A stretch of 64,000 nt of DNA from Narcine bancroftii (taxonomy: Eukaryota). The stretch spans positions 54,994,001-55,058,000 of the forward strand of contig NC_091475.1 in NCBI RefSeq assembly GCF_036971445.1. Reading direction: 5' to 3'. Position numbers and translations under genes: made by a program. The notes below the pieces were generated by a model that saw only the letters and a program-made list of their open reading frames with translations, was not told where the DNA came from and made no database searches. Shown here in pieces: positions 2,036 through 60,937 of the stretch (the first letter of the stretch is position 1; every line of letters starts with the position of its first letter).

Positions 2036-2829
2036 TACAGAGGTCATCGACCTGAAAAATAACACTCCCAAAACTCAACAGCAAACTCAAAGTAAGAACA
2101 AACTCTGCATTGCAGCTGTTGCAAGGGCAAGAAATCCCACTTCCTATCTCTGGCAAAGCAACTGCTTGGTGCAAACATGCCTCTTTACTCTGGTATATAT
2201 TGAACCAAGGCATCAAATCTAGTTTTTGCACATTTTGTCCATTGTGAAATAACAAAGTTGATGAGCCAAGCAAGAGAAATCTTTGGGAATATGGAGATGC
2301 AGCCCACGATTCAGAAGACTTTTATGTCCACGTCTCACCACTGCATTATGTCATGATTAAAATTAACTTCAAACGAAAGCAAGCAACAACAGATAGCCAC
2401 TGACAAAGCTAGTCAGAGGAAATGAAGTTAACCTGAGATTTTATACTTTCATAAGCCATTCACCCATCGAAACAAAAAAAAAGACGTCGATGTCAATCTA
2501 GTTCATTCTCTCAATCATCCTGGGTGACACACACGGCAATAATATTGTTGACAATCCACAATTATCAATCTCCGTCAACTAACCTGCACTCAACCCAGGA
2601 GTGAAGCAAGAAATGACGCCCTGTTGGGAACTGGAATTCAAAAGCTAACTTTGCCACCAACGCATGGTTCACTGGTAAAAATGCTGTCTCAAATTTATCA
2701 TAGGCTACTATAAAATACCACTTTATGAAAGAATTGCATATATTTTCTGAATAAATCAACACTGCATGCTTCAATCAGCAATTTAGAGGTATTGTTGCTC
2801 TCATTGACCAACAGTTCAGCAAACTTACA

Positions 2830-3700
2830 GTTTTATTCATTCACAGTGCCTGGTCATTGCTGGTTGGGCCAGAAATTAATGCCAGTGGTGATTTGCCCAA
2901 AAGTAAGTATGAACAAACCTTCTTCTTGTAACTTTGCAGACTGCGTTGCTCCTTGCAGATGGGGAGTTTGAGGATTTTATGTCAAATGCAACAAAGGAGG
3001 GTCTATACATTCTCAAGGATATGTGTGACTTAGGAGGGAAATTCACAGGCTATCTTTTCAACTGATTTTTTAAAAATTAAGAATGGTGTCTCAACTAAAG
3101 TAGCTTTGGTGAGTTGCCAGAATGCAGGCCATGAATGGTAAAATGGCCAAATGTGCTGAGGGGTTTGAGCTACTTGACTGACTGCAAGTTAAGTGGACAG
3201 CTTCATCCTAGGCAATGCACTGGGATGGGGAGAAAGGAGAGTGTGGGGCTTCATCCTTCAGTGATAACTGAATGTCTCCATTGGCTACATGCTTCATGTT
3301 CATGTGTTGCTACAGAAGTGGTTGCATGTCCTTAATGATAAGCCTTGTTTCCATGGTTACATTCATGGAGGAAATGGCATATTCTCAACCCCACTGCTGT
3401 TCTTTGTAGATGGTGAAGAGGTGCTCTCCAAGCTTCGGGAAAATCCATGTAACCACGGTGATTATGTGAACATATCCCACAATTTGATGCATTGAGGCTG
3501 GCTGGACCACTTTACAACTAATTTCACTGCTGCAGGTTGATCATCACATGTACTGCCAGCCAACAGTTTGAGATTTCCTCCTTCAATGGGACTGGTCGAC
3601 TGTTTGGTTTCTTTATGCAGTCTTACAGTTTTAGTATCACTAGAACCAACTTCCAAATGGATTTCTCTTCAATGAATGCAAACGCTCAATGTCATTGGTT
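2830..3700 (-). mobile_element. Old CR1/L2-like LINE fragment
   Basis: Starts with ttttattcattcacagtg..cattgctggttgggccag..., similar to 47222-47290; no intact ORF. Confidence 0.4.
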
Positions 3701-3857
3701 TATTGTTTGGAGTTTGAGTTACCTGTCCAGTGAGGTAACAACTCTACGACTGTACCCTACTCCCATTTGAATTCCCCCTTTCTTCACCAGGTAGATAGAT
3801 AAAGTGGATGGCCAGCACCATTTTTTTTTAAACTCCAGGGCAGGAATAGAAAGCACC

Positions 3858-4090
3858 AGAGGACATCTGCACAAAGTGGAGGGAGGGAAGTTTAGGAGAG
3901 ACATCAGGGGTACCTTTTTTTAAAACACAGAGAGTCATGGGTACCAGGAGTGGTGGTGGAGGGGCATTTAAGAGACAGGCATGTAGATGGAGAAAAATGG
4001 AGTGTTACAGGACAGGGTATTTTAAGGAATATATGGGTCAGCACAACATGGAGGGCTGAAGAACCTGTACTGGGCTGTAGTGCTCTTTGT
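3858..4090 (+). mobile_element. CR1 LINE 3' fragment
   Basis: ggacatctgcacaaagtggagggagggaagtttaggagagac...cacagagagt...ggtcagcacaacatggagggctgaagaacctgtactgggctgta, a typical CR1 ORF2 end plus 3' UTR. Confidence 0.7.
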
Positions 4091-4139
4091 ACCATTTATA
4101 TTTGGAGCACAGAGAGGAGAGATCAGCATATAAATCTAG

Positions 4140-4545
4140 GTAATATAACCATGAAACAGGCCATCTCAGCCTCTCTAGTCCGCACCAATTTAAGTGAAAC
4201 TCCCATCTATGTGTTCCATGTCCATAATCTTCCAATCCCCTCAAATCCATGCATTCATCCACCCTTCTCTTAAATGTAAAGATTGACCCTGCCACAACCA
4301 TCTCGTCCAGAAGGTCATTCCGCTCAGCCACCACTCTCTGAGTGAAGAAGCTCCCTCTTATGTACTTCTAAAGTTTTGCCCCCTAACCCTTAACTTATGA
4401 CCCCTCATTCCAATCTTACCTACCCTCAAGGGGAAGACCCTATTCACATCTACTCTATCTATCCCCCTCATAATTTTATATACTTCTTTCAAATCCCCAC
4501 TCAACCTTCGACACTCCAATGAATAATGACCCAGTCGACTCAAAA
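4140..4545 (-). mobile_element. CR1 LINE 3' fragment
   Basis: ORF 4358-4543 LGHYSLECRRLSGDLKEVYKIMRGIDRVD...RGHKLRVRG is the CR1 ORF2 C-terminal signature. Confidence 0.85.
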
Positions 4546-6224
4546 AAGTCAGAAGAATTTCTCGAAGTGTGATCAGGATGTTCGGGCCTTATCTAATTAA
4601 AAGATCCAAGCACTTCAGTCAATCTATTAGTCTACTCAGTGGTCTGATGATTCATTTTGTTTCCTTGTTCAGACGACCTCCCACTCCACCAACCCCACCT
4701 TCCAGCTGTTTGGCAGGAGGAAGAGAACAAAATCAGAATTTTCTTTTAATGAGTTGCAATATGAAAATGTTCCAAATGTTAAAAGCTCCACAGAGTTTGA
4801 CTGAAGTTTATCACGCTTCTTGTGAAGCTTTGTGCACCAGCCAAATTGCCCGATTACCATGGTAGCCCAGGCCTGCCATTCTTCTGCAGAATCCCAGGCA
4901 CTATTGATCATATCTGGGAATGGAGAGCTGCCCAGCAACTCAACTTTCATTTTAAATGGATAGACAATTTCCAGGCCGAGTTCTAATTGTGGAAAACAGT
5001 CTGTGGGGCAAAAGCCAGTTACACTACAGTTAACCAGAGTGTATGAAAGTCGCAGCATTTTAAGTAGATGAAAGATGAACACACAAAATTAAATAATGTA
5101 CTAATACCCACCAAAGCTATTTACTTAAAAATTCCCTAACTCAAAGGGAGAAATAATAGATCTTTCCAAAAATTGTCCAAATAAATGAGTGGGAAATGAC
5201 AGAACACAGCAAAGTAATCATTTTTTTAAGAAACAAACCAGCACATATATGTACAAGTATAGTTTGACATCTTGCACACATTCATCAGCAAGCTATTAAC
5301 TGCCTTAGTCCTAGTGTTTCAAGGCCAATTCATCATTCAGTTGAACAATGATGGAACAAGGATGGCTCCAACTTAATTGCTCATTATGACACAAAAGGAG
5401 TCAACCAATTAGGTCCATACAAACCTTCTGCAGAACATCCCCATCAATTCCTTTCCCCTGCACCTTCTTTTCTTCTGTCCAAGTGATTCCTTCTCACTTT
5501 TATACTCTGAGGGGTGATGACCCAATGAACGCAGCAGCAATGTCCTTGGTGACCAAAGGTCAGGATCGAACCTTGATCCCTGGGGTGATGAGGTGACAGT
5601 ACGCTTTGGTAAGCTCCCATGCTGCCTTTCATCTGCATCGATTTTACTTGACTGAACAGATGCTTTCTTCCCACTATTTTCTACTTTCTCAAGAAAATGA
5701 AACATAGATCAGGATTTACAATCTCTTCCCAAATGCCAAACGTCGTCTGTAAACTTCTTCTAGTATCTTTGGGTGGGGATGGGGGGGCGGGGGGGAGGAG
5801 AGGGGATCACTTCTTCACTCATAATTGTGGCTTTACTTGTGTTGATCCCATCAGTTCACCAATGCTATTGTTGCAGAACAATGTTGATTTTCCATGCTAA
5901 ACTCTTCACATCAGGAATAATATCAGGAAAGTTCATTTCAATACCTTGGCAAAATTATTATCATGTTTTGCTTCATTCAGCAAAGGGGAGGACCCTAGTT
6001 TTGGAGAGAAATGCTGACATAGCAATCTTTCCCAAGTACTGCCATTCATAAACCAAATCCTGTTACATTTCTCCTCATCTCTCATTCAAAAGAATTGGCT
6101 TCAGCAGGCTCTCAGCCTGTTTGTTTAGGTGCTTCTGACCTGGAGGCACTTTTCAATTCTCCTCTCCTCCTTGGAGCCTTCATTCATTTTGCAGAAAGAC
6201 TTCACAGCAGCTGGACCAGTCCCT

Positions 6225-6790
6225 CGAGTTCAAGTTTATTATCATCTGACTGTACATATACCACTAGATGAAGCAGCGTTTCTCTTGACCACGATGCTCT
6301 AATAAACAAAACATCATAATCAACTTGATAGATAAAAAATAAGATAAAATAAATGTGTATAAATATTTTGGAATAATGTATTAAATTCATTTATAGGAGA
6401 CCCAAGGTTACAAGATACCATTCATCAATCTTACAGCAGGCAGGAAAAAGCTATTTCCCAGCCTGGCAATCCTGATTTTGATCCTCCAGACCCTCCTTCC
6501 TAATGGTAATGGGTCAAAAATACTATGAGATAGATGGTCGGCTTCCTAAATAATTCTTTGAGCTCTATTTAAACAACACTCCCAGGTAATGTCATCAATG
6601 GAAGAAAAGGAGACCCCAGTGATCTTCTCGGCCATTTTAATAATCCTCTGTATCGACGTCCAGCATGATGCCTTGCAGCCACCGTATTTCACAATGATGC
6701 AGCACGCTAGGACATTCTCAATTGCACTCCTGTAAAATGTGGTCAAGGTGGGGGCCAGTAGCCTTGCCCTCCTCAACCTCCAGAGGAAAT
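6225..6790 (-). mobile_element. Rex1/Babar-type LINE 3' fragment
   Basis: ORF 6546-6851 LRRLRR...LTTFYRSAIENVLACCIIVKYG...IQRIIKMAEKITG; 3' end aataaacttgaactcga on minus. Confidence 0.75.
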
Positions 6791-8148
6791 GCGGATGCAT
6801 GATGGAATGCTCCGTTGCTGCCATGGGTCCAAAAACTGGAACTTGCAGCATATCAACAGAAGAACATGGATGGCTGCAGATGCAGCCTCAAGCCACACTG
6901 GGAAAGCTGACAGTCTGCTGCGCGCAATTCACACTCAACTTTGCAAAGCTATGAGCATGGAATCACTTGCCATACTCTCAATATAACAAAAAAATAATAA
7001 TAATTGCAGCTCTGAGAATGGTAAATAAGGATATTATTTTTCCTGCTCCTTGTTAAAATTCCCCCTCCCCATTTAAAAATAGTTTTCATCGTCACCCCAT
7101 TTAATGCTAATTTCCACTATCCCTCTCTTCCCAATTTGTTCGCTAAGCACTGGGTAACACTGAACCTTGGCAACAAAATATGCATAGTTTTGTGACTGCT
7201 TAAGTAAGCATCAATCCCAAATTCTCAAAATTGTTCTGCAATTTACAAGAGAACTCCACAGGGAGAGAAAAAAAATCTACTCAGTGAGTCAATCCTGCTG
7301 TTTGTGAAAACGTAACAATGTTATAAATGATATTGAACCTAATGTAGATCATTCCTGGAGCCAGGTTGTGATTGACATTTTCTTGTAAAAGCATGCAGAT
7401 GCACTGAAAATGGTGTAAAATCGATTCAGACGGATGATGCCTGAACTGTGAGGTTGTAGCTACCCAGGACGAGATCAATAGGCTGAAGCTCATGACAATG
7501 TAGTAATCAGTTGAGCAGTGATTTAATAGGAAGTTTAAAAGTGGAAAAGACTTTGATGGATTAGAGTGTGACATTGTGTTTCCATGTGGGGAGAGCAAAA
7601 CACAAGCTGTGGAAGTGAGATAATCATCAAAAATATCAATGGATGACTTCAAAAGAAACTTGATTGAGTTTGAGAAGATGATCTCCTGACCATAGGCCAA
7701 ACAGGAGAGGTGCATTGAAGAGAAGGTGGAATAGGTATATGAAGAGAAGAGTGATGCTATGGAGCCAGGTTAAAAAAAAAATGGGGGAGGGCTTGAGTGG
7801 ACCCTAAATTCTGGCATGAGCAATTTGTCTGATTTTTCTGCCTCTCCACTTTCTAGTCGATGTCATTTCAACGAACTGCCTGCCAGAAAGGTGTCTGCAG
7901 CGATCTTCTGGAGTGGTGCAGATTTGAATTATAAAGACCCAGACTGTAAACAGGTGCTCCATTTCATTGAGCAGAAAGAAGGCTGCCCACGGAGATAACA
8001 GCACACCTCCCGGGGAGTATTCCTCATTTTGTGACTCCTGTTATGGACAGTTGAAAGTTGCCAAGGGTCCAACAACCATTGAAGGATAACCACAGAAAGC
8101 AAAGTGGAAAGAACTGCTTTTAAATAACTTTCAAGAATTGTTTATAAT

Positions 8149-9268
8149 TGTATTTCTCATAGTTCCGGAGCATAGCTTTTCCCATTTTTCATTTTTTATC
8201 TTTATGTTTAGATCTTGTTTGGGTTTACAGCTTATTTCATCATTTTCCTTCTCTTTCAGCTTGATGTACATGTTTGTTATAAATCTTTTAATTATCATTG
8301 TGTCTGTAATCATCACATATTCAAAGCTGCTTCCTTCTGGTAATCTCAGTCTGCTTCTCAGTTTGTCCTTTAAGTAGGTTTTCAGTTGGTGTTATGCAAA
8401 CATTGTACCGTGAGTTATTCCATATTTGTACTTCATTTGTTCAAATGATAATAAATTATTTCCCAAAAAACAATTTTCTATTCTTATAATACCTTTTCTC
8501 TTCCATTCTTGAAAGGAAAGGTTATCGATTGTGAAAGGGATTAGTTGATTTTGCGTCAATAATAATTTTGGTAGTTGGTTTTTTTTTTTCCTTTCTATGC
8601 GAATCTTCTTCCAAATGTTGAGCAGATGGTGAACTTCTATATTGCACCCGTTTTTCATCCCACTTCTAAAGTATAGGCTCTGGTACCTTCTCCCCTATTT
8701 TATCCAGCTCTATCATGGTCCAATCTAGTTTTTCCCTTGTTTGATAAAAATCTGATAGATATCTTAATTGTGTAATTCTTAAAATTTGGTAGCTGCAAAC
8801 CCCCTTGTTTGGACCATTCTGCTAATTTATCTAGCGCTATCCTTGGTTTCCCCCCTTTCCATAAGAATTTCCTAATTCTTTTCTTTAGCTCATTGAAGAA
8901 TTTCTCTGTTAAGGGAATTGGGAATTGGTAGCAATTGAAATAGGTATTGTATCCTTGGGATGATATTCATTTTAATGCAATTTACCCATCCTATATTTTT
9001 CCAATGTTCTAAGTCATCTTGTAATTTCTTCATTTATGGCTGATAATTTAATTTGTATAGGAGGCCTAGATTATTATCTAGTCTAATAACTAGGTATCGG
9101 ATTGCTTGTGTTTCCCATTTAAATGGTGATTCTTTTTTAAACTTTGTAAAATTCATTGGCATTCTTTCACTTTTATTTGCGTTGATCTTGTACCCCGATA
9201 TTTCACCATATTCCTTCAATTTCTTATGTAATTTTTTTATTGATAATTCTGGTTCTGTTAAGTATACT
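8149..9268 (-). mobile_element. L1 ORF2 segment (RT domain to C-terminal region), inverted 5' part of a twin-primed insertion
   Basis: Minus translations VYLTEPELSIKKLHKKLKEYGEISGYKINANKSE, HLLNIWKKI..., WEKLCSGTMRNTI; frameshifted. Confidence 0.9.
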
Positions 9269-10058
9269 ACAATAAACACAAGGTTACACATGATACAATA
9301 TAATTGGTTACGCCGGCTATATATCACACCCCAAAATTTAAATAAATGGGATCCAACATTATCAGACAGATGTGTTCGCTGTAAGAAGGAAATGGGAACA
9401 ACAGTACATGCAATTTGGGCATGTGAGAAAGTGAAAAAGTTTTGGGAAGATCTAAATCAGGTATTAAATAAAATCACAAAAAACAACATTCCAAAAAATC
9501 CAGAGACTTTCTTCTAAGTAATAGAAGAAGTAAAGAATTAGGCCTCAAACTGAATGAAGCACAAAAAAGATTTATTATAATAGCCTTAGCTGCAGCAAAA
9601 AAATGTATAATGTCAACCTGGAAATCAGAACAGAGCCTGAGTGTACAGCAATGGTACATGGAAATGAATAAATGTATTCCATTGGAAAAAATAACATATA
9701 ATTTAAAAAATAAAGTCACATTATTTGAACAAATTTGGGAACCATACATGGAACACAACAGAGAGGGCCTACCGTGGACCTCCACCCCTTAAAATGACAG
9801 AATGAGAAGACAAAATGAAATGACCCAGTGTGTAAAAGTAAATGACACAATTTTCTTGTTTATTTTCATTGTGTGATGACATTGTTTAATGGGTTTATTG
9901 TATTGTATATGTTGAACATTTAATGGGTTTGGGGGGGGGAGGGAAGGGAGGAAGGAAAAGGGGAGAAAATGACACTCTGTGTATTCAAGAGGGAAATGTT
10001 TGTGTGTATTTTGGTTAATATGGTTCATAGTGTGAAAAATTTTTTAAAATTAAAAAAA
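9268..10058 (+). mobile_element. L1 ORF2 3' end with Cys-rich motif, G-rich 3' UTR and A-tail
   Basis: TINTRLHMIQYNWLRRLYITP...DRCVRCKKEMGTTVHAIWACEKVKKFW (CCHC-type), QQWYMEMNKCIPLEKITY; A-rich tail 10035-10058; imperfect TSD aagaattgtttataat 8133-8148 / aagaatgatttataat 10057-10072. Confidence 0.9.
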
Positions 10059-10202
10059 GAATGATTTATAATCAAGCACCAAATAAACTTTGGAAGACAA
10101 GTGCATAATGAATCTGAAATATTTTTTAAAAAACGGAAGTCAATAAACTGGGCATTATATTTTGAAATATCTATGAGAGAAAATGGTAATATGCACAAAA
10201 TT

Positions 10203-10968
10203 AGTTTATCTATCTCGGCTGCACCATTTCATCGGATGCAAGGATCGACAACGAGATAGACAACAGACTCGCCAAGGCAAATAGCGCCTTTGGAAGACTA
10301 CACAAAAGAGTCTGGAAAAACAACCAACTGAAAAACCTCACAAAGATTACCGTATACGGCTCCGAATCATGGGTCCTCTACCGGCATCACCTACAGCTCC
10401 TAGAACGCTTCCACAGCATTGTCTCCGCTCCATCCTCAACATTCATTGGAGCGACTTCATCACCAACATTGAAGTACTCGAGATGGCAGAGGCCGACAGC
10501 ATCGAATCCACGCTGCTGAAGATCCAACTGCGCTGGGTAGGTCACATCTCCAGAATGGAGGTCCATCACCTTCCCAAGATCGTGTTATATGGTGAGCTCT
10601 CCACTGTCCACTGAGACAGAGGTGCACCAAAGAAGGGGTACAAGAACTGCCTAAAGAAATCTCTTGGTGCCTGCCACATTGACCACCGCCAGTGGGCTAA
10701 TATCTCCTCAAACCGTGCATCTTGGCGCCTCACAGTTTGGCGGGCAGCAACCTCCTTTGAAGAAGACCGCAGAGCCCACCTCACTGACAAAAGACAAAGG
10801 AGGAAAATCCCAGCACCCAACCCCAACCAACCAATTTTCCCTTGCAACCGCTGCAACCGTGTCTGCCTGTCCCACATCGGACTTGTCAGCCACAAACGAG
10901 CCTGCAGCTGACGTGGACATTACCCCTCCATAAATCTTCATCCGCAAAGCCAAGCCAAAGAAGAGAAA
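10203..10968 (+). mobile_element. RTE-clade LINE, 5'-truncated, disrupted
   Basis: Near-identical to 60130-60925; internal deletion near 10357; ends taaatcttcatccgcaaagccaagccaaagaaga. Confidence 0.95.
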
Positions 10969-11519
10969 GTTTGTTTTAAGGCCAGGATAGCTGAACAGCA
11001 ATTGCTTTCTCACCCATTCAAACAAAATGTTTTAAACAGCTAATTTCAGGAAAAGTCACAGCAAAACAAGTTAATTTCAGCGACTGTCATTGATCACATG
11101 GGGAATGGTCACAGCCACACAATTTGTGGAGAAGGTTTGGATCAATGACAGCAATTATGCAATTTCTGTGTGCCGTTATTTACACCTGGAAATCCCCAAG
11201 CTGCAATCAAAGTTATGGTGCAATGACAGCAAGTGCCAATCACTTATTGCCATTACCCCTGGAAGACCTTGGCCAACTGGCACATAAAATCTACCTCTTG
11301 GCCTACTATCTGTTCAAATATCATACCCTGTTCAATTGTTATCAGCATGTCATGCTGTTGACAACAAGTCGATGGGAAGTAACAACAGCAGTCAACCAAC
11401 CCTTATTTACTTCAAGCCACAACAACCACTGCAGGAACAGTAAAACATAATAAGCCTTGGTTCAACTAAGTCACCAGCTTATTCCAATTGCTCACCATCA
11501 CACCATTACTTTTTAGTGG

Positions 11520-12089
11520 GTTCACTGGTTGAGAGGACCATCAAATGGTACAAAGACAACAACAGGGATGAGACAAAGGAGGTGATTGTGGACTTCAGGA
11601 GGACGAAGGTCGATCATTCGCTGCGACATGTCAATGGCTGAGACGAGGAGAGCACAAAATTCCTTGGTCTGCAAACCTATCCTGGACTCACAACACCTCC
11701 TCATTCATCAGGAAGGCTGACACTTCTCTTGGAGCTGGTGGAGGGAATGGCCACCAGCCCCATCCAGACAACATTTTACAGAAGCACACGAGGGTGTCTG
11801 GTCTAGCAGCATCATTGTGTGGTATGGTAGGTACAAAGCAATGGACTGGCAGTCAATACAGAGGATCATAAACATGGCTGAGAAGATCACAGAGGTCTCC
11901 CTTTCCTTTATTGATGGCGATCGCCAGGAGTATTGCATAAATAGGTCTTAAACAATTATTGAAGGTCCCTTTCATCCATCTTTCACCTTCTACCACCAGG
12001 AAGGAGGCACCGGAGCATCAAAATCAGGACACCAGGCTGGGAAATAGCTTCTTCCCGTAGGCTGTGAGAGTGATGAACTGTATCCTGCA
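11520..12089 (+). mobile_element. Rex1/Babar-type LINE fragment (its 3' end resumes at 13370-13446 after the gap and RTE insertion)
   Basis: acaaaggaggtgattgtggacttcaggagg (TKEVIVDFRR), ttttacagaagcac, gcatcattgtgtggtatgg; tail aataaacttgaa at 13433-13444 like the 6225 copy. Confidence 0.7.
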
Positions 12090-20763: not shown

Positions 20764-21786
20764 AGTAACAGATATCATATTTTATATTATATATACAAAT
20801 ATTTTTGGAGGAGTTACATTGAGGGTTTTAGTGTAGGTCACAAACACAAACAGATCTCATGTAAAATGCAAGAGCTCTGCTCAAACCAGCCACTCCAGGG
20901 CCAATGCCTTTGTAAAGACAATAGAAACTGCTTTGCTGAAGGACTTCACAATTAAGTATTAATTGGGCATGCTGAGGAGTAACAGATTATTGTTTTGAAA
21001 ACAATAGATGAATAGTTCTGCAATCAGTCTGGATGGAGTTTGCTGTTCGAAGAAGGTCATGTGGTTTTGCAAGCAAAGAGAGGAGACCAAACAGGCTTTC
21101 TCTAAGAGAGAGAGAGAGAGTCCAAACTGGTTTCTGCACCTTGGCAAGCTGGCCATTTGTATAAAACCCCTTTTTGAATAAGGGTTGTGAGTTCTGAGGT
21201 CAGCCTGTTGAAACAACCCAAGTGGTCCATACAAGAGGAAATGGCTGGCTAGAGAGTTTCACCTAAAATAAGGGAAACAAAAAGGAACTCTGTGGTGACC
21301 TTCAGAAGAAAAGGTTATCATTTGGAAAACCCTGATGGGGCAAGCTTCTTCGGCAAGACACTGAAGTGGCTGATTGGAAGGAATCAGTTTGTGTGTGTCC
21401 AACGAGCATCATATCTCTCTCTGAATTCAATGAGATCCTTTTTGAGTGGTAACCATTTACCTTTAAACACCAGAGCTTGGTGAAAATTTATAAATGTTAA
21501 ATTCTGTGTACAGTATAAGGATTGCCTGATACCGGTGAACTTGGAGGAGTGAGAAGTGAGATTGGACTGTGAATCAAATAATCTTTCTGATCTTATACAT
21601 ATTACATACATCTGCACTGAGAATTAGAAGGGGGTTAAGTTAGGTGAAGTTAAGGTAATAGTAATAAATTAAAGCTTGATTTTTTGATGTTTAAAGAAAA
21701 TTAAAAACTACTTTTGTTTAAGTAACCATTTGTCTTGGTTAATTTCTATTGCTGCTGGGTTTTTGGGGTCCTCTGGGCCCATAACA
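20764..21786 (+). mobile_element. Solo LTR (family A), probable 4-bp TSD ATAT
   Basis: Co-linear with 29317-30382; ends gggcccataaca; start agtaaca (TG mutated); atat at 20760-20763 and 21787-21790. Confidence 0.8.
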
Positions 21787-29316: not shown

Positions 29317-30382
29317 TGTTACGGGTTATGTTATATTTTATACTATATATATAAAGGTCTTTAAAAGAAATAGATTGTGTGGAGTTTAGTGTTGGTCACT
29401 TCACAAACTGACATTAACATCTCACAAAACACATCTCATTTGAAATGCAAGAACTATGCTTAAGTAGAGACTTCATGTCCACAGTGACTTCACAGAAACT
29501 TTGAAGAATACCTCTAGAGACTTCACAAGGAGGTGTTAATTGGATGGATGTTGGGGAATAAATGGATTATTGTCTTTAAAGCAACAGATGGCCAGGCTCA
29601 GAAACTGATTCCGGTGCCAGCAATCTGCCTGGCTGCAGTTTGCTGTTCTAGGAGGGGTCATGTGGTTTTGCAAACAGAGAGAGAAAAAAACGTGATTCTT
29701 TAGCGAGAGAGAGAGAGAAGTCAGTTCTATAGTTCCTCATTAGCTTTTGAGGGCTGCAACATGGCAAGCTGGCAGACTTGTTGAAAACCCCATTTTGAAG
29801 ACAGGTTGTGAGTTCTGAGTTCAGCCTTTTGAAAATCCTTGTGGTCCTTACAAGAGAAATGGCTGGCGAGAGTGTTTCACCTGAAATAATGGAAAAAAGG
29901 AACTCTGTGATGACCTGGAAGAAGAGATTATCATTTGGAAAAACCCTGATGGGGCAAGGTTCTTCTGCAAGACAATGAAGTGACTGATCGGAGGAAATCA
30001 GTTTGTGTGTGTGTCAAATGAGCAACAAATTTCTCTCTGAAACCAACTAGAACCTTCCTGAGTGGTAAATATTTACCTTTAAACACCAGAGCCTGGTGAA
30101 AATTCATAAATGTTAAATTCTGTGCACAGTATAAGAGCTACCTGATAACTTGGAGAAGTGAGAAGGGCGATTGGACTGTGAATCAAGTAACTTTCCTGAA
30201 CGTATACACATTACATACACATGTGCTTGAAATTAGAAGGGGGTTAAGTTAATAGCAATAAGTTGAAGATTGATCACGTTTTTATGTTTAAAGAAAATTA
30301 AAAGCAACTTTTTAAAAGTAACCGTTTGTCTTGGTGAATTTCTCTTGCTGCTGGTTTTTGGGGTCCTCTGGGCCCCATAACA
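29317..30382 (+). mobile_element. Solo LTR (family A), 1066 bp, 4-bp TSD GGAG
   Basis: Termini TGTTACGGG...CCCATAACA (TG..CA, 9-bp inverted repeat with 1 mismatch); GGAG at 29313-29316 and 30383-30386; no internal gag/pol. Confidence 0.9.
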
Positions 30383-54036: not shown

Positions 54037-54877
54037 TGTGACAGAATATAGAAAGTGTTTGGGAGATACATTGGGAAAGATTTGTTGGAGCAGGTCACAC
54101 ACAAACACTTTAAAACACAGAATTTTTGCAGGAGTACTCAGAGTGCTCAGAGACTTCAAATGATGGACTGTTATTTTGCAAAAGTGGCAGTTTGTCTGGA
54201 AAACAGTTTGCTGTCTGGAAAACAGTTTGCGTTTGCTGTCTGGAAGAGCATGTGATCTTTGCAGGCAGTGGCAGAATAGCTTTGCTCTCAGAGTGGGAGG
54301 GAGTGAAAGAGAGGAGAGACAGAGACTTGTCCAGAGGGACAAGCTGGCAAGCTTTGGAAGACGGCCTGGTCAAAGGAAAGGACTGGCTGTCTAGTGTTTC
54401 CCTTGGAATAGGAAAAACAGAAAGGTGCTCTGTGATGACCTGAAAGAAAAAGGTTATCATCTGGAAAACCTTGAAAGAGGGCAGGTGTCGTCAGCAAGGC
54501 ACTAGACTGGCTGACCTGAAACGAGAAAACTCTCTCCCTGAAAACCAACAAGAACCCTCCTGAGTGGTAACCGTTTACTTGTTAAGCACCAAAGCCTGAT
54601 GAACTTTATATAATGCTAACTTCTGTGCACAGTACAAGAATTGTCTGCAACCAGTGAGATTGAACTGCGAACCAAAGAAAGAACTTTTCTAAACTTATAT
54701 ACACATTACACACACGTGCACTTAGAATTAGAGGGGGGTTAAGTAAGTCAATAGAGATAAGTTAAAGTTTGATTCTATTTTCATGTTCAAAGATAATTAA
54801 AAGCAACTTTTGTTTAACCCTTTGTCATGGTGGATATCTATTGCTGCTGGGTTTTGGGGTCCTCTTGGCTCGTAAAA
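54037..54877 (+). mobile_element. Solo LTR related to family A (divergent 5' half)
   Basis: Starts TGTGACAG; 54400-54875 is co-linear with 29880-30380; ends ggctcgtaaaa (CA mutated); TSD not evident. Confidence 0.75.
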
Positions 54878-54915
54878 TTTTGTTGTGAATGATTAGTGTT
54901 GCTTAGTACTCACTT

Positions 54916-55266
54916 CAGTTTTCTTCAGGCTGACTTCCAGGCCAAACATTTTGGCAGTTTCCGCAAAACAGGACGTCAAGCGCTGAAGAGCTGGCTCTGA
55001 ATGGGCAACTAAAGCGGCATCGTCTGCAAAGAGTAGTTCACGGACAAGTTTCTCTTGTGTCTTGGTGTGAGCTTGCAGGCGCCTCAGATTGAAGAGACTG
55101 CCATCCGTGCGGTACCGGATGTAAACAGCGTCTTCATTGTTGAGGTCTTTCATGGCTTGGTTCAGCATCAAGCTGAAGAAGATTGAAAAGAGGGTTGGTG
55201 CGAGAACACAGCCTTGCTTCACGCTGTTGTTAATGGAGAAGGGTTCAGAGAGCTCATTGCTGTATC
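54916..55266 (-). mobile_element. RTE RT core segment, inverted 5' part of a twin-primed insertion
   Basis: Minus VKQGCVLAPTLFSIFF...ELLFADDAAL...SLKKTE (RT QG and FADD motifs). Confidence 0.95.
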
Positions 55267-56135
55267 AGCCAGCTCCCCACCATAACTACCAGCCCCCCCA
55301 CATCTCCATCGGGCACACAAAACTCAAAACGGTCAACCAGTTTACCCATCTCGGTTGCACCATTTCATCAGATGCAAGGATCGACAACGAGATAGACAAC
55401 AGACTCGCCAAGGCAAATAGCGCCTTTGGAAGACTACACAAAAGAGTCTGGAAAAACAACCAACTGAAAAACCTCACAGAGATAAGCGTATACAGAGCCG
55501 TTGTCATACCCACACTCCTGTTCAGCTCCGAATCATGGGTCCTCTACCGGCATCACCTACGGCTCCTAGAACGCTTCTACCAGCGTTGTCTCCGCTCCAT
55601 CCTCAACATTCATTGGAGCGACTTCATCCCTAACACCGAAGTACTCGAGATGGCAGAGGCCGACAGCATCGAGTCCACGCTGCTGAAGATCTAGCTGCGC
55701 TGGGTGGGTCACGTCTCCAGAATGGAGGACCATCGCCTTCCCAAGATCGTGTTATATGGCGAGCTCTCCACTGGCCACCGTGACAGAGGTGCACCAAAGA
55801 AGAGGTACAAGGACTGCCTAAAGAAATCTCTTGGTGCCTGCCACATTGACCACCGCCAGTGGGCTGATATTGCCTCAAACCGTGCATCTTGGCGCCTCAC
55901 AGTTTGGCGGGCAGCAACCTCCTTTGAAGAAGACCGCAGAGCCCACCTCACTGACAAAAGGCAAAGGAGGAAAAACCCAACACCCAACCCCAACCAACCA
56001 ATTTTCCCTGCAACCGCTGCAACCGTGTCTGCCTGTCCCGCATCGGACTTTTCAGCCACAAACGAGCCTGCAGCTGACGTGGACATTTACCCCCTCCATA
56101 AATCTTTGTCCGCGAAGCCAAGCCAAAGAAAGAAG
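55264..56135 (+). mobile_element. RTE sense 3' part; whole insertion flanked by 11-bp TSD AGTACTCACTT
   Basis: QPAPHH...to tail gccaagccaaagaaagaag; TSD at 54905-54915 and 56136-56146. Confidence 0.95.
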
Positions 56136-56334
56136 AGTACTCACTTATCAGGATTTGATTGTGCTACATTATCTCTTCCGTAGCTCAAAGTCTAGCTTTC
56201 AAACATAAAAATAGAAGGCTAAATCAAGATCATGTGACCCATCAATGCCATGCTGGCTGACAAAGTGCTATGAAAGTTAAATCAGAAAGTCTACAGATGG
56301 AAATGGTAAGATGGAGTATGATGATGGGTGAAAT

Positions 56335-59964: not shown

Positions 59965-60937
59965 GAGCCAGCTCTTCAGCGCTTGACGTCCTGCTTTGCG
60001 GAAACTGCCAAAATGTTTGGCCTGGAAGTCAGCCTGAAGAAAACTGAGGTCCTCCATCAGCCAGCTCCCCACCATGACTACCAGTCCCCTCACATCTCCA
60101 TCGGGCACACAAAACTCAAAACGGTCAACCAGTTTACCTATCTCGGCTGCACCATTTCATCAGATGCAAGGATCGACAATGAGATAGACAACAGACTCGC
60201 CAAGGCAAATAGTGCCTTTGGAAGACTACACAAAAGAGTCTGGAAAAACAACCAACTGAAAAACCTCACAAAGATAAGCGTATACAGAGCCATTGTCATA
60301 CCCACACTCCTGTTCGGCTCCGAATCATGGGTCCTCTACCGGCACCACCTACGGCTCCTAGAACGCTTCCACCAGCGTTGTCTCCGCTCCATCCTCAACA
60401 TCTATTGGAGCGCTTACATCCCTAATGTCGAAGTACTCGAGATGGCAGAGGTCGACAGCATCGAGTCCACGCTGCTGAAGATCCAGCTGCGCTGGATGGG
60501 TCACGTCTCCAGAATGGAGGACCATCGCCTTCCCAAGATCGTGTTATATGGCGAGCTCTCCACTGGCCACCGTGACAGAGGTGCACCAAAGAAAAGGTAC
60601 AAGGACTGCCTAAAGAAATCTCTTGGTGCCTGCCACATTGACCACCGCCAGTGGGCTGATAACGCCTCAAACCGTGCATCTTGGCGCCTCACAGTTTGGC
60701 GGGCAGCAACCTCCTTTGAAGAAGACCGCAGAGCCCACCTCACTGACAAAAGGCAAAGGAGGAAAAACCCAACACCCAACCCCAACCCACCAATTTTCCC
60801 CTGCAACCGCTGCAATCGTGTCTGCCTGTCCCGCATCGGACTTGTCAGCCACAAACGAGCCTGCAGCTGACGTGGACTTTTTACCCCCTCCATAAATCTT
60901 CGTCCGCGAAGCCAAGCCAAAGTAAGAAAAAAAAAAG
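59965..60937 (+). mobile_element. RTE-clade LINE, 5'-truncated, uninterrupted ORF 59983-60870, 11-bp TSD ACATATCTGAA, inserted in an old CR1 fragment (~59835-61220, minus)
   Basis: TSD at 59954-59964 and 60938-60948; 295-aa open frame ending in the Cys/His motif. Confidence 0.97.

What the first reader, a model, noticed from the sequence alone, without database searches (positions are those of the whole stretch)
54905..56146. RTE-clade LINE inserted by twin priming: clean 5' inversion with perfect 11-bp TSD
Seen: the TSD AGTACTCACTT (54905-54915 / 56136-56146) encloses an inverted RT segment (54916-55266) and a sense 3' segment (55264-56135). The inverted part ends at ...aaaactga and the sense part begins at atcagccagc; these are adjacent in intact copies (60040-60066) with only ~7-8 nt lost. 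The internal junction has 3-bp microhomology (atc), and the TSD end (cactt|cag) mimics the element (gacct|cag), as expected for second-strand priming on the RNA. Established: twin priming is characterised mainly for mammalian L1. Inference: an RTE enzyme can do the same. Two such events from two LINE clades in 64 kb hint at a host-repair contribution in this lineage.
Basis: partly seen in the sequence, partly recalled or inferred. Interest (0 to 1): 0.7.

Follow-up and report, generated by a model that had tools for sequence, protein, structure and literature searches.

The report
RTE retrotransposon family routinely inserts front-flipped
A dead jumping-gene copy sits between two identical 11-base target repeats with its front third backwards, about one in ten sampled copies of its family in this genome is flipped the same way, and the likely cause is "twin priming", a copying route described almost only for mammalian L1 elements.

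Summary
Observation confirmed. One exact 11-bp TSD encloses a 351-bp inverted reverse-transcriptase piece and an 872-bp sense 3' piece of a single-ORF, RTE-type LINE. Eight bases are lost and 3 are shared at the inner junction.

The copy is ordinary for its family: 9 of 90 unselected copies are 5'-inverted. Genome-wide, one motif pair occurs head-to-head 730 times, against 2 tail-to-tail and 4 out-of-order controls. That excludes later inversion and nesting as general causes. Twin priming is the likely route; priming on RNA is inferred.

The host-lineage idea is not supported. Matched indices are RTE 3.0%, L1/Tx1-like 0.24%, CR1 0.06%; direct samples give 5/32, 1/40, 0/40. The claimed TSD mimicry is only 1 exact base. 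Read support for both inversion junctions was not obtained.

This scan has noted RTE inversions before, in this genome and others. New here are the controls and the cross-clade rates. Eight literature searches found no report for RTE.

The parts
54905..54915 (+). Left target-site duplication (11 bp); cut site T|A as in 90% of the family's sites
54915..54915 (+). 1-base microhomology between TSD end and element (family position 2801): inferred second priming site
54916..55266 (-). Inverted segment, family positions 2450-2800, encoding part of the reverse transcriptase including the FADD motif
55264..55266 (.). 3-bp microhomology (ATC) at the inner inversion junction; family positions 2802-2809 are lost
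55264..56127 (+). Sense 3' segment, family positions 2810-3675 (end of RT, C-terminal region, 3' UTR); dead, with a premature stop at 55692-55694
56128..56135 (+). Short GAA-type microsatellite tail, no poly(A)
56136..56146 (+). Right target-site duplication (11 bp, exact)

Best explanation
This is one dead, 5'-truncated insertion of a very abundant RTE-type LINE whose front 351 bases are inverted inside a single target duplication, likely because both cut DNA ends primed reverse transcription on the same RNA (twin priming). Shown: the anatomy, the T|A cut signature, and that about 10% of family copies have this layout. Inferred: the element's endonuclease nicked the bottom strand and the first cDNA ran 872 nt from the GAA tail; the top-strand nick 11 nt away left a 3' overhang whose last base paired with the RNA at position 2801, just ahead of the first cDNA; a second cDNA ran 351 nt; the two cDNA ends annealed at ATC/GAT and host repair filled in and ligated. 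The high rate is likely a property of this RTE protein or RNP rather than of the host, because co-resident L1/Tx1-like and CR1 families do it far less.
For: Local anatomy. Unselected rate: 9 of the first 90 genome hits of the exact 3'-end 37-mer (10%, 95% CI 5-18%); 3 of 31 copies in 424 kb of contiguous DNA, this copy included; 1 of 30 with a variant 3' motif. Whole-genome motif counts: head-to-head 730, tail-to-tail 2, out-of-order direct 4, colinear 23,871. All of the first 30 of the 730 are 5'-inverted copies. In 46 pooled inverted copies the two pieces are within 50 nt of contiguous in 40. 41 of 46 carry an exact TSD of 8-14 bp, against 54 of 154 non-inverted copies (P=5e-11). 36 of 37 clean 5' junctions have at least 1 base of microhomology, mean 2.1, against a shuffled mean of 0.32 (computed on 29 of them). 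Extra bases at the 5' junction: 4 of 41 inverted against 20 of 48 non-inverted (P=8e-4). L1 shows the same set of traits (PMC2912911, PMC4245944, PMC5668948; passages). Cross-clade index: 730/24,601, 18/7,383 and 1/1,545; direct samples 5/32, 1/40, 0/40.
Against: No sequence feature shows that the template was RNA. Wobble pairs are not in excess (3 against 5 at position -2), and truncated non-inverted copies have equal microhomology. This copy has only 1 exact base, whereas about 70% of inverted L1 have 2-5 (PMC2912911). 18 of 46 inner junctions carry extra or unmatched bases, which shows host end processing. The RTE versus L1-like difference is not significant in the direct sample (P=0.08), and the motif index misses long inverted pieces, such as the window's own 1.1-kb L1-like event. 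The CR1 and L1-like families are older and longer. The 90-copy sample comes from the first 5.7 Mb of one contig. The overhang-length model of PMC4245944 would predict more inversion for the L1-like family (TSD 13-19 bp), which is not seen.
Confidence: 0.8

Rival explanations
1. One long cDNA was made, then broken during integration, and host end-joining attached the distal piece backwards; there was no second priming on RNA.
For: 18 of 46 inner junctions have extra or unmatched bases. No wobble excess. Microhomology equals that of plain truncations.
Against: A broken antisense cDNA piece has the same polarity as the top-strand overhang and could not anneal to it, yet 36 of 37 clean junctions have microhomology (the polarity argument is inference). 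Inverted copies keep full TSDs far more often. Rates differ between families in one host.
Confidence: 0.13
2. A normal truncated insertion was inverted later by a small chromosomal rearrangement.
For: No empty allele or ortholog could be examined; 2 tail-to-tail motif pairs exist genome-wide.
Against: One break falls exactly on the TSD edge here and within a few bases of it in the other TSD-bearing cases. A later internal inversion makes tail-to-tail and head-to-head junctions alike, but the counts are 2 against 730.
Confidence: 0.03
3. Two independent insertions, nested or adjacent in opposite directions.
For: The family is dense (at least 65,657 copies), and such look-alikes exist (L054, L004, L027).
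Against: One TSD encloses both pieces, the inverted piece has no tail or TSD of its own, and the pieces are 8 nt from contiguous. Same-orientation nesting gives 4 hits against 730.
Confidence: 0.02
4. Assembly or chimeric-read artefact.
For: Short-read contigs crossing the 5' and inner junctions were not among the listed pieces.
Against: A fold-back chimera gives an inverted duplication, not complementary pieces inside an exact TSD. Hundreds of loci share the layout, with junction microhomology and the family's cut signature.
Confidence: 0.02

Closest known systems
5'-inverted (twin-primed) mammalian L1 insertions (model of Ostertag and Kazazian 2001, not held; read as described in passages of PMC2912911, PMC4245944, PMC5668948, PMC12350158)
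   Same: Inverted 5' piece plus sense 3' piece inside one TSD; small deletions or duplications at the inner junction; microhomology at both junctions; full-length TSDs kept; few extra bases at the 5' join.
   Different: The element is single-ORF with a GAA tail and 8-14-bp TSDs (mode 12), not two-ORF with poly(A) and about 15 bp. The rate is about 10% of copies (19%, 9 of 47, among those with at least 590 bp of sense sequence) against 30.9% of human- and chimp-specific L1 (PMC2912911). Microhomology is shorter (mostly 1-2 bases).
One 5'-inverted Nimb-2_DR (zebrafish non-L1 LINE) insert in chicken DT40 cells (PMC4245944, passages)
   Same: A non-L1 LINE with a TSD of about 12 bp giving a 5' inversion; shows the route is open to non-L1 enzymes.
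   Different: A single cell-culture event; that paper concludes inversion is nearly confined to L1 in human cells. Here it is a routine germline outcome, estimated at thousands of copies.
RTE-clade LINEs of animals (insertion signature in PMC6007223, passages)
   Same: Microsatellite 3' tail, TSD peak 10-12 bp, TSD starting with A, T-rich stretch about one helical turn upstream.
   Different: The T-stretch peaks at -14 to -12 here, against about -10 there. In that paper, inversion and twin priming occur only in a reference title. No named RTE family was available for a phylogenetic placement.

Membership tests
RTE-clade LINE | Single long ORF with AP endonuclease followed by reverse transcriptase, no separate ORF1 | tested here: met
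   L052 (3.7 kb) has one 1145-codon open frame with PF03372/PF14529 and PF00078; 5' of it lies a GC-rich tandem-repeat leader.
RTE-clade LINE | Short microsatellite 3' tail, not poly(A) | tested here: met
   GAA/GAAA-type tails in this copy and the others shown.
RTE-clade LINE | TSD peak 10-12 bp, starting with A, with an upstream T stretch (PMC6007223, PMC4245944) | tested here: met
   TSD mode 11-12; T at -1 90%, A at +1 90%, T 60-74% at -14 to -12 in 88 sites.
RTE-clade LINE | RT groups with named RTE elements in a phylogeny | not testable with these tools
   The best 120 homologues carry no clade names; no reference RTE sequences were on hand. The label RTE rests on anatomy, signature and recall.
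Twin-primed 5' inversion | Inverted 5' and sense 3' pieces enclosed by one TSD | tested here: met
   41 of 46 pooled inverted copies.
Twin-primed 5' inversion | Pieces near-contiguous on the element, with small deletion or duplication | tested here: met
   8 nt lost here; within 50 nt in 40 of 46.
Twin-primed 5' inversion | Microhomology between TSD 3' end and the internal priming site | tested here: met
   1 base here, which alone is chance-level; family 36 of 37 with at least 1, mean 2.1 against 0.32. Not specific to inverted copies.
Twin-primed 5' inversion | Microhomology at the inner junction | tested here: met
   3 bases here; at least 1 base in 24 of 46, none in 4, extra bases in 18.
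Twin-primed 5' inversion | Second strand is primed on the RNA by the element's RT | tested here: inconclusive
   Wobble-asymmetry test negative; needs biochemistry.
Twin-primed 5' inversion | Inversion arises at insertion (empty allele; no un-inverted allele) | tested here: inconclusive
   No empty-allele joint among the listed contig joints, and no ortholog cover; indirect support from 730 against 2.
L1 clade | Two ORFs, poly(A) tail, TSD 13-15 bp | tested here: not met
   Single ORF, GAA tail, TSD mode 11-12. The co-resident L1/Tx1-like family is a different element with two ORF regions and poly(A).

The most novel reading that the evidence does not exclude
Twin priming is not a speciality of mammalian L1 but an intrinsic, frequent outcome of RTE-clade retrotransposition. 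In this genome one RTE family has left thousands of 5'-inverted copies (about 10% of all copies, about 20% of long ones), about 12 to 46 times the index of co-resident L1-like and CR1 families. So the enzyme or RNP, not the host and not TSD length alone, sets the rate. A one-protein RTE would then be the simplest system in which to reconstitute second-strand nicking and twin priming.
Probability: 0.6. Interest if true: 0.62.

Novelty: new variant of a known kind. Interest (0 to 1): 0.5.

Why it matters
The copy itself is dead and one of thousands. The family-level result matters. A cell-culture study concluded that 5' inversion is nearly confined to L1 in human cells and tied it to host factors and overhang length (PMC4245944). 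A natural RTE family that inverts about one copy in ten, beside L1-like and CR1 families that rarely do, separates element from host within one genome. It supplies a very large set of junctions that date second-strand cleavage relative to first-strand synthesis, a poorly understood step of target-primed reverse transcription. It also means that repeat annotation will split and overcount such copies as two elements.

Tried and rejected
Reads: only short-read contigs were served, four runs of one sample that may be the assembly's own. One 304-letter contig per run lies without differences from 56111 into the right flank, but only 25 of its letters are on the element side, under the tool's 31-letter standard. 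No listed piece crosses 54915 or 55264; the tables were cut, and contigs drop rare paths in repeats, so this is no evidence either way. The 'skip' joints listed there have unknown sequence between their sides and were not counted as inversions. Runs of organisms B and C had no cover at 56182-56295, so there was no ortholog test.

A DNA search with the 3' end returned nothing because common words are skipped; patterns were used instead.

Wobble asymmetry as proof of RNA priming: negative. Tiny hidden inversions at the 5' ends of 78 non-inverted copies: none by a 13-mer test. A recalled L1 rule about 590 bp proved to concern the 5' end of L1, so that parallel was dropped.

Rows dropped as look-alikes: L004, L027, L054 (neighbouring or nested copies); one 71%-identity leader hit in the C1 block; L259, L264, L276 (palindromic TA tract); L290 (neighbour). 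L024 is doubtful but stayed among the 46. L191 and L192 duplicate L088 and L178 and were counted once. L129 ran off its locus and was not resolved (I fetched L130's flank by mistake).

The first microhomology count mis-scored 8 junctions (mostly inner SNPs) and was redone. The Atlas did not hold the protein. Two key papers were not held.

Full report
OBSERVATION. The 11-mer AGTACTCACTT occurs twice in the window, at 54905 and 56136. Between them lie a minus-strand piece (54916-55266) and a plus-strand piece (55264-56135) of one repeat family, which has ten 3'-ended copies in the window. The minus piece reads as an open RT fragment (RVT_1, E=2.8e-10). Against a real full-length copy (L052) the pieces are positions 2450-2800 and 2810-3675, at 97.7% and 96.4% identity. 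Intact copies show 8 bases between them; the inner junction shares ATC; the TSD's last base equals element position 2801. The copy is dead (stop at 55692-55694).

THE ELEMENT. L052 holds one 1145-codon open frame with endonuclease and RT domains, a GC-rich tandem leader and a GAA-type tail. In 88 TSD-bearing sites the cut is T|A (90% each), with T-rich positions -14 to -12; this is close to the RTE signature in PMC6007223 (passages). TSD lengths peak at 11-12, the RTE value cited in PMC4245944 (passages). Homologues bear no clade name, so 'RTE' rests on anatomy and recall, not on a tree. The exact 3' 37-mer occurs 65,657 times in the 3.33-Gb genome. That the host is a cartilaginous fish is my inference from recall and from earlier scan notes; I did not test it.

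HOW COMMON. I took the first 90 hits of that 37-mer in genome order, all fetched with upstream DNA. Nine are 5'-inverted: 10%, CI 5-18%. Three that ran off their locus proved un-inverted. All nine have a candidate TSD of 9-14 bp (the stricter finder missed L180). Seven are near-contiguous; two have deletions of 466 and 1309 bp. Scaled to 65,657 copies this gives roughly 6,600 (3,500-11,800), with the caveat that the sample spans 5.7 Mb of one contig. Three contiguous blocks (424 kb) gave 3 of 31, this copy included, and a variant motif 1 of 30. All nine inverted copies have at least 619 bp of sense sequence, while 43 of 81 plain copies are under 590 bp (P=0.003, threshold recalled beforehand; rank test P=0.08).

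GENOME-WIDE CONTROLS. Two 16-mers 303 bp apart occur in normal order 23,871 times. With the upstream one reversed and within 400 bp they occur 730 times. Tail-to-tail, which a later internal inversion must also create, they occur twice. Out of order in the same direction, as nesting would give, four times. All of the first 30 of the 730 are 5'-inverted copies with near-contiguous pieces. Later inversion and nesting therefore cannot explain the class.

JUNCTIONS. Among 46 pooled inverted copies (28 from the enriched set), 41 have an exact TSD of 8 bp or more, against 54 of 154 plain copies; among copies at least 97% identical to the reference, 34 of 38 against 35 of 84. Forty of 46 are within 50 nt of contiguous. 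At the 5' junction 36 of 37 clean cases have microhomology (mean 2.1), and 4 more have extra bases; a shuffle gives 0.32. At the inner junction 24 of 46 share bases, 4 are blunt and 18 have extra or unmatched bases. Against my reading: plain truncated copies have the same mean microhomology (2.0, n=28), wobble pairs are not enriched, and this copy has only one exact base. The sequence shows annealing of the top-strand overhang, not that the partner was RNA.

HOST OR ELEMENT. That family does invert: 18 head-to-head pairs genome-wide, of which 14 resolve as near-contiguous or deleted inversions and 9 have TSDs of 13-19 bp. But it has 7,365 colinear pairs, an index of 0.24% against 3.0% for RTE. 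A young CR1 family gives 1 against 1,544 (0.06%). Because the index misses long inverted pieces, I also sampled the first 40 colinear hits of each: L1-like 1 of 40, CR1 0 of 40, against 5 of 32 RTE copies with at least 950 bp of sense sequence (P=0.08 and 0.014; pooled 0.007). The rate follows the element. The low CR1 rate fits the overhang-length idea of PMC4245944 (no convincing TSD of 8 bp or more in 40 copies), but the L1-like family has longer TSDs and inverts less, so length alone does not explain it. Age and length differ between the families and remain confounders.

MECHANISM. Most likely twin priming (0.8): first nick and cDNA from the tail; second nick 11 nt away; the overhang primes on the RNA just ahead of the first cDNA; the two cDNAs meet at ATC; host repair finishes. 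The anatomy and frequencies are shown; the order of events and the RNA template are inferred from the L1 model as described in PMC2912911. The best rival is breakage and inverted re-joining of one cDNA (0.13).

READS. Inconclusive; see Tried and rejected.

LITERATURE. Eight searches found no report of 5' inversion in RTE elements. I saw passages of PMC2912911, PMC4245944, PMC5389967, PMC6007223, PMC11371274, PMC5668948 and PMC12350158; a term search of PMC13295347 (Bov-B signatures) gave no hit for inversion or twin. PMC4245944 reports one inverted non-L1 insert (Nimb-2). Ostertag and Kazazian 2001 and Kojima and Okada 2009 were not held; Ichiyanagi and Okada 2008 was seen only as cited. No supplements were opened. 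The library lacks most subscription papers, so absence from print is not established. The scan has earlier notes of RTE inversions in this genome and others; they are unchecked and not independent support.

VERDICT. Real, ordinary for its family, and a new variant of a known process. The value lies in the family-wide rate and the cross-clade contrast. Interest 0.5.

Noticed in passing
window 8147-10062: 5'-inverted L1/Tx1-like LINE (inverted 8147-9273, sense 9268-10062, poly(A), degenerate 16-bp TSD). A second such copy is at L076/L255 with an exact 16-bp TSD. So a non-mammalian L1-like family also inverts, at a lower rate.
   Followed up: yes
L052:3293-6598: The RTE protein is 70-79% identical to proteins of amphioxus, a sea urchin and a carp, which suggests horizontal transfer among aquatic animals; not tested by a tree.
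   Followed up: no
88 insertion sites across the loci: Strong target signature: T|A at the cut and a T-rich patch at -14 to -12, a little further upstream than the approximately -10 reported for other RTE elements.
   Followed up: partly
154 non-inverted RTE copies: Only 54 have an exact TSD of 8 bp or more, and many carry extra 5' bases; plain truncation and inversion seem to be resolved by different end-joining routes.
   Followed up: partly
window 54374-54875: LTR-like repeat ending 30 bp before the left TSD, with relatives at 21020-21786 and 29620-30382; the label is recalled. Observed only.
   Followed up: no
L054:3358-5210: One RTE copy inserted in the opposite direction inside another, with no TSD: a look-alike that is not twin priming.
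   Followed up: partly
C1 block, L180, L184, L030, L215: Inversions with large deletions (466-2143 bp) or duplications (144-184 bp) at the inner junction inside a candidate TSD.
   Followed up: partly
L245:1278-2468: The single CR1 head-to-head hit looks like a true inversion, with a 56-bp overlap.
   Followed up: partly
L247-L248 (C1:2.480-2.484 Mb): Two RTE copies in tandem about 430 bp apart; L246 is a full-length copy with several leader repeats.
   Followed up: no
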